Of a stretch of 64,000 bases of DNA, positions 11,167-35,209 are shown piece after piece (position 1 is the first letter of the stretch; each line of letters opens with the position of its first letter). The notes beneath the pieces were generated by a model, which did no database searches, had not been told where the DNA came from, and was given only the letters and a program-made list of their open reading frames with translations. The translations under genes and the position numbers were made by a program. The DNA is from Heptranchias perlo (lineage: Eukaryota): NCBI RefSeq assembly GCF_035084215.1, contig NC_090332.1:85870001-85934000 (forward strand), read 5' to 3'.

Positions 11167-12905
11167 AAGGACCAGAGACGAGATGAGATTTTTTTTTGAT
11201 GCAGTGAATTGTTATGATCTGGAATGCACTGCCTGAAAGGGCGGTGGAAGCAGATTCAATAGTAACTTTCAAAAAGGAATTGGATAAATACTTGAAGGGG
11301 AAAAATTTGCAGGGCTGTGGGGAAAGAGCAGGGGAGTGGGACCAATTGGATAGCTCTTTCAAAGAGCCAGCACAGGCACGGTGGGCCGAATGGCCTCCTT
11401 CTGTGCCCTATCATTCTCTGATTCTGCTGCCGGGTTAAGGGAGCCAATTTTAATACCAGGTGAAGGCAGGAGCAGCACTGGGACACCAGAATCCCACAGC
11501 CCAACCAGCAGAGACAGGAAATATAAAAGCGCATTTGCTGAAATGGAAAGAAAAGGGCGTTTGATCACGGACGAGCCTGAGGCCCGCAGCACAAGTCCTG
11601 CCTGCCTGTCGAAGAACAAAATGTGCGCAGAGAAAGGGGGAGGGTGGGACCTTAAAAAAAAAACATTAAATGCATTTCTTCATTTTCAAGTCACTTTTCT
11701 CTTTGGACCAACCTCCTTGCGGGAGGTAATACAGTCCTCCATTCGAGACACTTACCAGGTTCGCATTCGGATTGAAATGTTTGTCGAGCAACTGATCATC
11801 ACCCTGTCTCAAAGGTGCCAGGAACTCTCAGGGAGACTCTGGGTTGGGTGTTGTGGAATTTGTAAAGCATTGAATGCAGAAGCAGGTTTGCTCTAAACCT
11901 CAATCTGTGTGGCACTGGGTTTAATTCGTGCAACGTCAGGTGGCTGGCTAAAGTACGCTGGAGCGATCTGTCATTTTAACAAGTCGCACGTTCAGACGGA
12001 GTTTCCTAAAACTGATTTGCAGTGCGATTAACAGGGGAGCTACTGGTTGGAATATTAAAGCAGCCAATTGACCCTTTCAATAAGGTATGCAGTTGTAGAC
12101 AAATTCCACCACTCTGGCTCTCACTCCCACTTATGTGAGTAACTACTTTCCATTCCCTGAAGACCTGATTTGCACAAGATCAATTCTGTTGAATTTTCTT
12201 TTTTTTTCTGTCATTTGAATGTAGTCAAATGAAAATATAATAAATCAATATTCTAACCCATTTATATGTAGATAATGTCTACAGATCGGACAGATTCCTG
12301 AAAAACTAATGTCTGGCCCCAAAATAAAATCCATCCGTTAGTTCAATGACCAGTTTCATAATTTAATGACAATTGCCAGAGAGGTAATTTTCTGACTCTG
12401 TGCTCCCGGAGAGGAGCCTTACCCAGCTGTAGCAACAACAACAACAACTTGCATTTATATAGCGCCTTTAATGTAGTAAAACGTCCCAAGGTGATTCACG
12501 GGAGCGATTATCAAACAAAATTTGTCACCGAGCCACATAAGGAGATATTAGGACAGCTGACCAAAAGCTTGGTCAAAGAGGTAGGTTTTAAGGAGTGTCT
12601 TGAAGGAGGAGAGAGAGGCGGAGAGGTTTAGGGAGGGAATTCCAGAGCTTTGGGCCGAGGCAGCTGAAGGCACGGCCGCCAGTGGTGGAGCGATGAAAAT
12701 CGGGGATACGCAAGAGGCCAGAATTGGAGGAGCGCAGAGACCTCGGAGGGTTGTCGGGCTGGAGGAGGTTGCAGAGATAGGGAGGGGGCGAGGCCGTGGA
12801 GCGATTTGAAAACAAGAATGAGAATTTTAAAATTGAGGCGTTGACGGACCGGGGCACCGGTGTAGGTCAGCGAGCACAGGGGGTGATGGGCGAACGGGAC
12901 TTGGC
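11167..12905 (+). repeat. Inverted segmental duplication, copy A (inferred donor)
   Basis: Reverse complement matches ~32505-34429, including ~1 kb of otherwise unique sequence; mirrored ORFs 11359..11619(-) and 33977..34339(+) both start MFFDRQAGLVLRASGSS. Confidence 0.95.
12433..12905 (-). mobile_element. L2-type LINE 3' fragment (end of duplication copy A)
   Basis: caacaacaacaacaacttgcatttatatagcgcc tail and FKILILVFKSLHGLAP. Confidence 0.85.
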
Positions 12906-14169
12906 GCTGCATGTGGTTTTCCAGCCATTTGAGCAACAAGTAGGAAAAATGTCCTTCAGGAATCAATTTTTAAGATGGATTACAACAGCCGGTTCTCAGA
13001 ATTTAGTCAGTGCAGATTTTTAGTAAGTAACTGGAGATTACACCATCCTGCGCCATCTCATCAAATATTCATGGAGTTAAGCTGTTAAATAAAATGTGTT
13101 CTTGAGCACTCAACCCAGTTGCTAATGGGTATAAGTCCACCAATTAGCGAAATTACTCAGGGGAGCATGGGATGGGTTGTGTACGCAGTGGAATTGTCAC
13201 ATCATGCAGTCTGGGATGCTCTTTTGAGATTGGATCTGCAGAATATTATTGGGTTGGAAATACCTAGCCTTGGAGTGCTTGATATGGGAAAGGTTCCAAT
13301 GCCAAATCCAAACACCCTTTCTCCTTTTAAGTTTTTTTTTTAAGAAAAAAGTGTCAACTAGCTGGGTATAGAGGGATATGGGCCAAGTGCAGGCAATTGG
13401 GACTAGCTTAGTGGCATAAACTGGGCGACATGGACATGTTGGGCCGAAGGGCCTGTTTCCATGTTGTAAACTTCTATGATTCTAGTTGGTGGCAGTCAGA
13501 GGTGAATCTGGCCCTAGTGAAGTTTTAAGTGTGAATGGGGTCAGAGAGTGTCTTCTGCTGACAGGATGGGTGCAGCTTGTAGTGGAATTACAGGTTTTGT
13601 GCAGCTGCAGTGAGAGTGCTGGCTTGTGAAGAGATCTGGTTTATTCCCTCCGGGACTTTGTAGGGGCTCATTTCAGAGTCGGCGAGAAGAGAAAGCAAAT
13701 AAAGCTGTACAACTTCTCGCACAATACGGTTTTAAAATATTAGTCAGATATTGATCACTTTTGAATTAATCAATACTATGATCAGTGCTCCTCTGAACTT
13801 CCTTCCCATGTTTCTTTTAAGCTGTAAATACACCGCCCTACATAGTCTGCCTCCTCCCCGCACCCTCACTATATTTAAAAGCAAGACTTATTTCACCATG
13901 TCCAATTCCGGAGCATTCTCACCCATGACCTCTTCACCTTCCTCAGCCCATCCTCCCGCCAACAATCTCCAGGCTTTTAAAACCCAAGCTTAGCTTCACT
14001 TGATCACTACTTCCCGATTTACCCTTGTCTTTTATCCTTTTCAACATTCGTAACTCCCTGACCTTGGGCTCATGTGACAAGACAAGGTACTTATTCTACT
14101 TGTCTCCCCGTGTGTACGCGAGGCAATGCCACGCTTGAGGTGTTCTGTCATTGCACAGCCTCTTTTATT

Positions 14170-14960
14170 ATCATAGAATGATACAGCACAGGAGGAGGCC
14201 ACTCGGCCCACATTACCTTACCTCTTTGAAAGAGCTATCCAATTGGTCCCACTCCATCCCCTGCTCTTTCCCCGTAGCCCTGCAGATTTTTCCCCTTAAA
14301 GTATTTATCCAATCCCCTTTTGAAAGTTACTATTGAATCGGTTTCCACCGCCCTTTCAGGCAGTACGTTCCACATCGCAACAACTCGCTGTGCCAATTAC
14401 CTTAAATCTGTGTCCTCTGTTTACCGACCCTTCTGCCACTGGAAACAATTTCTCCTTATTTACTCTTATCGAAACCCTTCATGATTTTGAACGTCTCTAT
14501 CAAATCGCCCCTGTACCTTCTCTGCTCTCAGGAAAACAACCCCAGCTTCTCCAGTCTCTCTACATAACTGAAGTCCCTCATCCCTGGTACCATTCTAGTA
14601 AATCTCTTCTGCACCCTCTCTGAGGCCTTGACTTCCTTCCTAAGGTGCGGTGCCCAGAATTGGACACAACTACTCCAGCTGAGACCTAACCAGTGATTTA
14701 TAAAGGTTTAGCATAGCTTCCTTGCTTTTGTGCTCTATGCCTCTGTTTATAAAGCCAGGGATCCCATATGCTTTTTTCAACAGCCTTCTCAACTTGTCCT
14801 GCCGCCTTCAAAGATTTGCGTACGTGCACCCCCAGGGCTCTCTGTTCCCGCACCCCCTTTAAAATTGTACCATTTAGTTCATATTGCCCCTCCTCATTCT
14901 TGCTACCAAAATGCATCACGTCACCCTTCTCTGCGCTGTTGTCTGCCCATTTCGCCAGTC
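14170..14960 (-). mobile_element. CR1 LINE 3' fragment
   Basis: MHFGSKN...YELNGTIL...LGVHV..SLK motif; tail atcatagaatgatacagcacaggaggaggcc. Confidence 0.85.
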
Positions 14961-33310: not shown

Positions 33311-33486
33311 ATTGTAAACAATTTTACAACACCAAGTTATAGTCCAGCAATTTTATTTTAAATTCACAAGCTTTCGGAGACTTCCTCCTTCCTCAGGTAA
33401 ATGTTCAGGATCTCCTTGAAGCCTACGCATTTATACATATAGAACAATACATGGTGTTTACAGACTGCCCCTGCAACTGCCCGTTA
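33311..33486 (-). mobile_element. Penelope-like fragment inserted into duplication copy B (hammerhead at 33363-33401, - strand)
   Basis: Absent from copy A (empty site near 12125); CUGAGGA-type core identical to the 37839 copy; carries ~80 nt more element sequence. Confidence 0.8.
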
Positions 33487-35209
33487 GTGAGAGCCAGAGT
33501 GGTGGAATTTGTCTACAACTGCATACCTTATTGAAAGGGTCAATTGGCTGCTTTAATATTCCAACCAGTAGCTCTCCTGTTAATCACACTGCAATCAGTT
33601 TTAGGAAACTCCGTCTGAACGTGCGACTTGTTAAAATGACAGATCGCTCCAGCGTACTTTAGCCAGCCACCTGACGTTGCACGAATTAAACCCAGTGCCA
33701 CACAGATTGAGGTTTAGAGCAAACCTGCTTCTGCATTCAATGCTTTACAAATTCCACAACACCCAACCCAGAGTCTCCCTGAGAGTTCCTGGCACTTTTG
33801 AGACAGGGTGATGATCAGTTGCTCGACAAACATTTCAATCCGAATGCGAACCTGGTAAGTGTCTCGAATGGAGGACTGTATTACCTCCCGCAAGGAGGTT
33901 GGTTGACTTGAAAATGAAGAAATGCATTTAATGTTTTTTTTTAAGGTCCCACCCTCCCCCTTTCTCTGCGCACATTTTGTTCTTCGACAGGCAGGCAGGA
34001 CTTGTGCTGCGGGCCTCAGGCTCGTCCGTGATCAAACGCCCTTTTCTTTCCATTTCAGCAAATGCGCTTTTATATTTCCTGTCTCTGCTGGTTGGGCTGT
34101 GGGATTCTGGTGTCCCATTGCTGCTCCTGCCTTCACCTGGTATAAAATTGGCTCCCTTAACCCGGCAGCAGAATCAGAGAATGATAGGGCACAGAAGGAG
34201 GCCATTCGGCCCACTGTGCCTGTGCCGGCTCTTTGAAAGAGCTATCCAATTGGTCCCACTCCCCTGCTCTTTCCCCACAGCCCTGCAAATTTTTCCCCTT
34301 CAAGTATTTATCCAATTCCTTTTTGAAAGTTACTATTGAATCTGCTTCCACCGCCCTTTCAGGCAGTGCATTCCAGATCAGAACAACTCGCTGCGTTAAA
34401 AAAAACCTCTCATCTCGTCTATGGTCCTTGGGATGTTTTACTACATTAAAGGCGCTATATAAATGCAAGTTGTTGTTGGATCTCCCGAGGCCTGACACAA
34501 AGGCCCCTCCATCAGCACCGGGCCCCACAGGGGCTGTGGATTTGTACCAGGAGGGGCAGTGTTAACGTCACAGGACAGGACGTCCCAGAGCGCCTGGGCT
34601 GGAGCAGCACACTTTGGGCAGCGCTGTTCCTGTCCAGACCCAAGAGCAGTGGCACCTACCTTCTGGAGTCCAGTGCTCCCAGACAGCGTCCTATTCTTTG
34701 GACTTTGACGGCCTGTGCTGATCTACCAGTGTTGACGCCTCTTTCCCCTTGTCCCTTTCTTGGCGCTCGTTCCATCTTTGCTTGGCATGTCGGACCTTCA
34801 TATCTCGACAGGATCTGCGACTATGTTTCCGGAATAGACAAGGCTGTGTACAACCACAGCCATCATCCCGAGAGCTAACTGTCACAGGCACTCATTATTT
34901 TATAAAACGGGAGTCTTATAACAGGCGATGCTTTTTAAGGGAAAGCTAGATAAGCACATGAGGTGAAAGGAATAGAAGGATACGCTGATAGGGTGAGATG
35001 AAGTAGGGAGGGAGGAGGCTCGTGTGGAGCATAAACACCAGCACAGACCAGTTGGGCCGAATGGCTGTACATTCCATGTAATTTTGTGCTACGCTGTTGT
35101 GTCAGATGTTTGTAACGTGCCCCTGCTGTTAAATAACAGCTGCACGGCGGGCTAAGTAATGAAACACCGCTTAAAACGATTATCGTAAAGTGACCCCTTT
35201 GCGTCGCAG

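What the first reader, a model, noticed from the sequence alone, without database searches (positions are those of the whole stretch)
11167..34478. ~1.6 kb inverted templated insertion with a readable mechanism: L2 homology entry, 4-nt microhomology exit
Seen: 11167-~12905 is reverse-complemented at ~32505-34429. Near-identity fades inside the L2 at one end (~12720/~32720). At the other end it stops at CCTT (34426-34429, matching AAGG 11167-11170), where the sequence continues directly as an L2 3' tail, so that tail occurs twice in copy B (~32943 and 34426). Inference: a break in the last-intron L2 was repaired by invading the oppositely oriented L2 ~20 kb upstream, copying through ~1 kb unique DNA and a CR1 end, then returning by microhomology (SDSA/MMBIR-like). 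This makes copy A the donor.
Basis: partly seen in the sequence, partly recalled or inferred. Interest (0 to 1): 0.7.

Follow-up and report, generated by a model that had tools for sequence, protein, structure and literature searches.

The report
Inverted intron copy inside old LINE
About 1.5 kb of intron DNA from a sphingolipid-synthesis gene sits copied backwards, 20 kb away, inside an old jumping-gene remnant; it was likely pasted there during DNA repair and likely overwritten again later by its twin, an ordinary kind of genome scar.

Summary
The inverted copy is real. A (11167-12907) and B (34429-32515) share a core of 1,477 aligned bases with 10 substitutions (0.68%), plus a 176-bp Penelope-like insert in B. 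The unique middle has two matches in the genome. One 7-bp target-site duplication encloses all of B, its L2 tail occurs twice, and A's CR1 runs on past the 4-nt AAGG joint. Both copies lie in introns of an SPTLC2/3-type gene; the five exons between are collinear, so nothing is inverted.

The mechanism is less readable than claimed. Near-identity stops 48 bp before the microhomology: 7 of 44 sites differ there, and at three of them A carries the derived base. One recent copying event does not give that (P about 1e-4 to 1e-6). Best reading (0.5): an old DNA-templated repair insertion whose core was later overwritten by gene conversion. Rivals: one recent event with a 26-bp patch from another CR1 (0.25), or capture during L2 insertion or through a circle (0.15). 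Which end was entry and which exit cannot be told. Known kind, no exon copied, no outgroup.

The parts
11154..11424 (+). Copy A: 5'-truncated CR1-type LINE 3' fragment (family name recalled; start approximate)
   Evidence: aligns with 21 other copies besides B; continues about 13 bp upstream of the joint used in B
11167..11170 (+). AAGG microhomology in the donor, also present in A's own L2 at 12488-12491
11171..11214 (+). Diverged tip of A: 7 of 44 sites differ from B (1 in 11171-11188, 6 in 11189-11214)
11215..12707 (+). Near-identical core of A (10 substitutions in 1,477 aligned bases, evenly spaced)
11425..12432 (.). About 1 kb of non-repetitive intron DNA in A, no exon of the host gene
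12433..12907 (-). Copy A: 5'-truncated L2-type LINE (name recalled); 12708-12905 differs from B by 10.3%
17586..28240 (+). Five coding exons of the SPTLC2/3-type host gene between the two copies (17586-17691, 20979-21198, 25113-25239, 27790-27925, 28111-28240), in order, with AG/GT ends
   Evidence: exon ends read by eye
32489..32495 (+). Left copy of the 7-bp target-site duplication TGGATCT
32496..32726 (+). Copy B: outer 5' part of the L2, not near-identical to A, 6.7% from the family majority
32727..34380 (-). Near-identical core of B: L2 3' part with first tail (to 33001), unique DNA, CR1 body, all inverted relative to A
33311..33486 (-). 176-bp insertion found only in B; young multicopy element end, Penelope-like by recall
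   Evidence: (33 hits in 464 kb; 96 bp identical to 37874-37969)
34381..34429 (-). Diverged CR1 tip of B ending in the CCTT joint (34426-34429)
   Evidence: tiled exactly by same-sample contigs
34426..34478 (+). Second L2 3' tail, 53 bp, starting inside the 5' arm of the predicted tail stem-loop
34477..34483 (+). Right copy of TGGATCT, overlapping the terminal repeat by 2 bases
35210..35323 (+). Last coding exon of the host gene, ending in TGA
   Evidence: weak tblastn hit (E 2.0); splice acceptor and stop read

Best explanation
B is an old L2 remnant split by an inverted copy of donor A, likely inserted long ago during DNA-templated break repair and likely overwritten later across its 1.5-kb core by gene conversion with A. 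Shown: the inverted copy, A as donor, one target-site duplication around both L2 tails, a 4-nt microhomology at one joint, L2 homology at the other, a sharp 0.68% core between diverged edges, and no inversion of the exons between. Inferred step 1: a break near CCTT in B's L2 tail was repaired by synthesis on A, 20 kb away, using AAGG at one end and L2-L2 homology at the other (SDSA/MMBIR-like); the direction of synthesis is not readable. Inferred step 2: the inverted twins later exchanged by non-allelic gene conversion without crossover, resetting 11215-12707 and leaving the 48-bp CR1 tip and the far L2 untouched. The 176-bp element and the 13-bp indel came after. No function is implied.
For: Tip 7/44 vs core 10/1,477 (p=1.6e-7). 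After scaling for the 1.53-fold higher family variability of the tip, P(>=7)=5e-7 and P(>=5)=1e-4 if the tip split with the core. At 11200, 11205 and 11208 A is derived and B has the family majority, which error-prone copying into B cannot give. A's 30-mer over these sites occurs once in the genome, so no donor for it was found. The tip still descends from A's lineage: both carry the G>A at 11178, found in 56 other places genome-wide against 4,317 for a majority-type word and 0 of 29 fetched copies that share B's downstream 30-mer. The 1 + 6 split of differences fits a uniform old split (P=0.20). The TSD match of 7 in register is reached by 0.48% of shuffled flank pairs. Inverted twins kept alike by conversion, with tracts averaging 2,068 bp and rare inversion, are known (PMC3723533, abstract).
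Against: Differences in the core are evenly spaced (P=0.59 for the longest gap) and both edges are sharp, as one recent event would also give. No GC bias or CpG retention that would mark repeated conversion was found (W>S 10 vs S>W 6 in A's core, similar at A's edges; CpG kept 12 of 16). The far L2 shares only 2 rare variants, which 19 of 190 random pairs also do. TSDs are not typical of this L2 family here (0 of 36 other copies reach 7, 1 of 36 reaches 6), and the B flanks also share an 8-mer out of register, so the TSD could be chance. The shared tip variant was picked after seeing it; 50 of 231 random pairs share at least one rare variant there. No outgroup or second individual was available.
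Confidence: 0.5

Rival explanations
1. One recent repair event, but with an extra step: about 26 bp (11189-11214 equivalent) of B came from another CR1 copy, by a template switch during synthesis or by a later micro-conversion.
For: Six of the 7 tip differences lie in 26 bp. B's 30-mer there occurs exactly 138 times in the genome. The core is uniform with sharp edges. Template switching between diverged repeats is robust in yeast (PMC4215184, abstract and introduction); conversion between neighbouring Alus acts within about 10 kb (PMC8230782, passage).
Against: It needs a jump away from A and back within 26 bp. Among the first 100 of 138 listed exact matches, the nearest other one on this contig is 3.5 Mb away. 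The best partial matches in 1.06 Mb sampled are 33/34 and 32/33 and cover only the common part. The 1 + 6 split is not significant (P=0.20).
Confidence: 0.25
2. The insert was captured when the L2 itself arrived or by a circle, and the core was converted later. Either reverse transcription began at an L2 tail, jumped at AAGG onto A and back onto L2 RNA, or A 11167-12491 circularised through its two AAGG words and integrated into B's L2 by a crossover in the tail.
For: Both give the same joints and the doubled 53-bp tail. The TSD encloses the whole composite. The joint lies in the 5' arm of the predicted tail hairpin. AAGG occurs at both ends of the A segment. Tip divergence is near the maximum age possible (15.9% vs 20% for random pairs). 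Earlier unchecked notes describe flipped local DNA inside one TSD in this genome (e1-8656760).
Against: A jump during insertion needs B's L2 to be younger than A's CR1, yet B's outer L2 is 6.8% and A's CR1 body 3.9% from their family majorities (small counts, not tested for significance). No poly(A) or splicing mark. The junction word is unique in the genome, so no chimeric family spread.
Confidence: 0.15
3. B already held its own antisense CR1 nested in the L2, CCTT being that CR1's old 5' joint. One recent gap repair used L2 homology on one side and CR1 homology on the other to import the 1 kb from A.
For: Explains fading inside a repeat at both ends with one event; the tract reaches about 215 bp into the L2 and 210 bp into the CR1. 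CR1 5' ends near this point are not rare (4 of 39 other copies within about 10 bp). 13% of random pairs differ at no more than 1 of the outer 18 sites.
Against: B shares A's rare 11178 variant (56 vs 4,317 genome-wide; with the next base only 7 others). A's private A>G is what makes the 4-nt match perfect.
Confidence: 0.07
4. Assembly artefact, or the by-product of an inversion with staggered breaks.
For: Only the likely source sample holds the stretch (4 of 24 runs at share 0.84, one sample). No listed contig spans the whole stretch.
Against: In that sample the middle has about twice the contig depth of most flanks (95.9 vs 39.1 and 41.1, one flank 70.3; 15.9 vs 7.7; the tool warns depth is no copy number). 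Exact contigs tile the B joint (34380-34435, 34406-34454, 34456-34640), though with under 31 bases on one side. All exons between the copies are on + and in order.
Confidence: 0.03

Closest known systems
Class 2 templated sequence insertion polymorphisms (Onozawa and Aplan, PMC5110952; part 1 of 4 and passages read)
   Same: A copy of another genomic region patched into a site, with microhomology at a joint and no poly(A) or TSD around the insert itself.
   Different: The donor is 20 kb away on the same chromosome and inverted, not distant; one joint is long L2-L2 homology; the insert is about 1.3 kb, against 73-414 bp in their experimental set; nothing here points to the RNA template they propose.
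BIR/MMBIR with template switching between diverged repeats (Anand et al., PMC4215184; abstract and introduction read)
   Same: Synthesis that joins one end by homeologous repeats and another by microhomology.
   Different: Here synthesis returned to the broken site after about 1.5 kb (SDSA-like), with no translocation; protein dependence cannot be tested.
Gene conversion between inverted repeats: Y palindrome P6 (Hallast et al., PMC3723533, abstract only); conversion among neighbouring Alus (PMC8230782, passages)
   Same: Inverted copies with more than 99% identity, a kb-long identical tract and no inversion of the spacer.
   Different: Arms are only 1.7 kb with a 19.6-kb spacer, and the GC and ancestral bias reported for P6 was not detectable.
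F8 intron-22 type inverted repeats (recalled, no call)
   Same: Inverted near-identical copies placed so that a crossover would invert coding exons of the host gene.
   Different: Both copies lie within one gene, they are much shorter, and no inverted allele is known here.

Membership tests
Templated insertion at a repaired break (class 2 TSIP / SDSA-MMBIR) | Insert is a copy of one identifiable donor locus | tested here: met
   donor polarity from A's CR1 continuing past the joint
Templated insertion at a repaired break (class 2 TSIP / SDSA-MMBIR) | Microhomology or homology at the joints; no poly(A) or TSD around the insert itself | tested here: met
   4-nt AAGG (chance 1.6%) and L2 homology; the only TSD found encloses the host L2
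Templated insertion at a repaired break (class 2 TSIP / SDSA-MMBIR) | Pre-existing empty acceptor (an intact L2) in another allele or outgroup | tested here: inconclusive
   3 other organisms laid at 80% gave no long piece on the unique flanks; anatomy suggests it
Templated insertion at a repaired break (class 2 TSIP / SDSA-MMBIR) | Uniform donor-copy identity from joint to joint, as one event gives | tested here: not met
   tip 7/44 vs core 10/1,477, with derived bases in the donor
Non-allelic gene conversion between inverted repeats | Near-identical tract bounded by older, still related edges | tested here: met
   relatedness rests on the CR1 tip, the L2 edge is ambiguous
Non-allelic gene conversion between inverted repeats | Paralogues closer within a species than orthologues between species | not testable with these tools
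   no relative close enough among the 24 runs listed
Non-allelic gene conversion between inverted repeats | GC or ancestral-state bias; mosaic of tract ages | tested here: inconclusive
   no clear bias, even spacing; low power
LINE insertion with template jump or 3' transduction | One TSD around the whole composite, ending in the LINE 3' terminal repeat | tested here: met
   shared with the repair model, so not diagnostic
LINE insertion with template jump or 3' transduction | Insert as old as the outer L2; no stage with an intact L2 | tested here: inconclusive
   tip age near family age but on 44 sites only
Staggered-break inversion | DNA between the inverted duplicates is inverted | tested here: not met
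   five exons between, those upstream and the last exon are all on + in protein order
L2 and CR1 clade labels for the two repeats | Clade placement of the reverse transcriptase | not tested

The most novel reading that the evidence does not exclude
The L2 reverse transcriptase stalled in its own 3' stem-loop during insertion, jumped by 4 nt onto its host gene 20 kb away, copied 1.5 kb and returned: a local capture by a LINE that normally recognises only its own tail. The resulting inverted pair has since been held at 99% by conversion and would fold the pre-mRNA into a 1.5-kb stem looping out five exons (719 nt), predicted to favour a circular RNA, editing or a gene-breaking inversion of this sphingolipid enzyme.
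Probability: 0.08. Interest if true: 0.6.

Novelty: new member of a known kind. Interest (0 to 1): 0.28.

Why it matters
As it stands, little: a well-preserved germline repair scar in a slow-evolving fish genome, with no exon copied. It is a useful caution that high identity does not date a local duplication and that a fade in identity need not mark a strand-invasion point. The pair brackets five coding exons in inverted orientation, so it is a testable substrate for an inverting crossover and for RNA pairing across introns. Three literature listings came back for shark, CR1, templated insertion, gene conversion and retrotransposon (at least 4 of 5 terms); none concerned this locus, judged by titles and abstract starts.

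Tried and rejected
Outgroup test: runs of organisms B, C and D (3 of the 6 other organisms listed; shares 0.12-0.13) gave only repeat matches and diverged last-exon contigs, with no usable orthologous intron. Their skipping joints near 32926-34426 come from other L2 copies and are no evidence of an empty site. GC-biased conversion and CpG retention: no signal. Mosaic of conversion tracts: not seen. Sister relation of the far L2 parts: 2 shared rare variants, one at about 5% genome-wide (866 vs 15,821), not significant. Nearby donor for B's 26-bp patch: none exact in 1.06 Mb. Donor for A's patch: none in the genome. Chimeric CR1-L2 family: joint word unique. Exon in the copied DNA: none with 14 of 150 relatives used as queries. 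TSD for A's L2: only a 4-bp match, at background. Rfam on 32000-38500 at E<=1: 7 hits, all generic hairpins on the 37.9-kb palindrome and below gathering score; no hammerhead called. Base-rate scan for similar duplicates in 1.06 Mb: 190 hits, of which the 30 longest were viewed; tandem arrays and apparent dispersed repeats, not classified further. Correction: my note and searches used 13 core substitutions; the count is 10 of 1,477. Earlier-finding look-ups near this place and by words returned nothing.
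Full report
Observation. A self-comparison of the window ranks the pair first of 200 hits: 11167-12125 against 34429-33486 and 12125-12907 against 33310-32515, both inverted. The gap is a 176-bp insertion in B. The core, 11215-12707 against 34380-32727, has 10 substitutions in 1,477 aligned bases, one 13-bp and four 1-bp indels. A search with 801 bases of the middle finds only A and B (a lower bound). In contigs of what is probably the source sample, the middle has about twice the depth of most flanks and exact contigs tile B's joint, though none has 31 bases on both sides. 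This supports two copies but is not independent.

Setting. Exons found with 14 of 150 related proteins and a PDB match to serine palmitoyltransferase 2 (E 4e-39) define an SPTLC2/3-type gene on +; the C-terminus recalls SPTLC3 (from memory). A lies in the intron before the exon at 17586 and holds no exon. B lies in the last intron. Five exons lie between, all on + and in order, so the pair is not the scar of an inversion.

Anatomy of B. Read on +: TGGATCT, a 5'-truncated L2 with its tail, 1 kb of unique DNA, a CR1 fragment backwards, CCTT, a second 53-bp L2 tail, TGGATCT. A 7-base match in register is reached by 0.48% of shuffled flank pairs, but 0 of 36 other L2 copies show one, so TSDs are not the rule for this family. 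A's CR1 continues about 13 bp beyond AAGG and B's L2 extends about 25 bp beyond A's 5' end. Together these make A the donor and B a split L2. A joint with 4 or more shared bases arises by chance 1.6% of the time.

Identity fades at both ends. In the L2, 12708-12905 differs by 10.3%, against a median 12.9% for pairs among 20 other copies. In the CR1, the 44 sites next to the microhomology differ at 7, against a median 20% for pairs among 22 copies. Scaled for the tip's higher variability, 7 differences have P=5e-7 and 5 have P=1e-4 if the tip split with the core. At three sites A is derived and B keeps the majority base, so sloppy copying into B is not the answer. Yet B's tip comes from A's lineage: the shared variant at 11178 occurs in 56 other places against 4,317 for a majority-type word, though I chose it after seeing it. 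B's inner 30-mer is common (138 exact copies) and A's is unique.

Mechanism. The best account has two steps. First, an old templated insertion at a break in B's L2, joined by microhomology at one end and L2 homology at the other. Second, a later conversion without crossover that reset the core. Conversion with tracts averaging 2 kb and rare inversion is documented for inverted repeats (PMC3723533, abstract). Against this, the core is uniform (P=0.59), no GC or CpG signal was found and the far L2 is not shown to be related. The main rival keeps one recent event and adds a 26-bp patch from another CR1; such switches occur in yeast (PMC4215184), but no nearby donor was found and the clustering is not significant (P=0.20). 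If the first step is old, its route is not readable: repair synthesis in either direction, a reverse-transcriptase jump at the tail hairpin (the joint lies in its predicted 5' arm) and integration of a circle closed at A's two AAGG words all give the same joints. I favour DNA repair, since the donor is local and B's outer L2 looks no younger than A's CR1 (6.8% vs 3.9% from majority, small counts). The odds given are my judgement, not a computed posterior.

Comparison and verdict. It works like a class 2 templated insertion (PMC5110952, part 1 of 4 and passages), but one defining expectation of a single event, uniform identity between joints, was tested and not met, and the empty site could not be seen: three other organisms were too distant. 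I therefore call it a repair-type insertion with a second, likely converting, step rather than a clean member of one class. Nine paper searches listed the general mechanisms and nothing on this locus; no supplements were consulted. It is a new instance of known kinds, of modest interest. The one testable consequence is that a 99% inverted pair brackets five coding exons.

Noticed in passing
window 33311-33486 and 37874-38056: The insert in B ends in a young multicopy element; 96 bp are identical to a copy at 37874 that forms a perfect palindrome. It has a CTGAGGA...GAAA core like the hammerheads of Penelope-like elements (recalled; PMC4209133 seen as a listing only), but Rfam called no hammerhead. 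It sits in the core without a clear TSD, and its break could have triggered the conversion; untested.
   Followed up: partly
window 17586-28240: The five exons between the inverted copies sum to 719 nt, not a multiple of 3; a candidate circular RNA or frameshifting skip if the copies pair in pre-mRNA.
   Followed up: no
L125 (G000:C8:85662700-85664000): A CR1 copy 218 kb upstream shares two of A's variants (11178, 11275), so A belongs to a minor CR1 lineage.
   Followed up: partly
window 32480-32497 and 34476-34495: Besides the TSD, the two flanks of B share an 8-mer out of register, so the target may have held a short local repeat.
   Followed up: no
L129:2243-3333 and 6938-8027: An inverted pair of 1,088 bp at 94.7%; one arm also matches loci on other contigs, so probably two repeat copies.
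   Followed up: no
window 62992-63802 and 16026-16227; L006:7962-9667: Tandem arrays of about 70, 33 and 36 bp units.
   Followed up: no
window 42429-42681: Another inverted arrangement of the same Penelope-like end.
   Followed up: no
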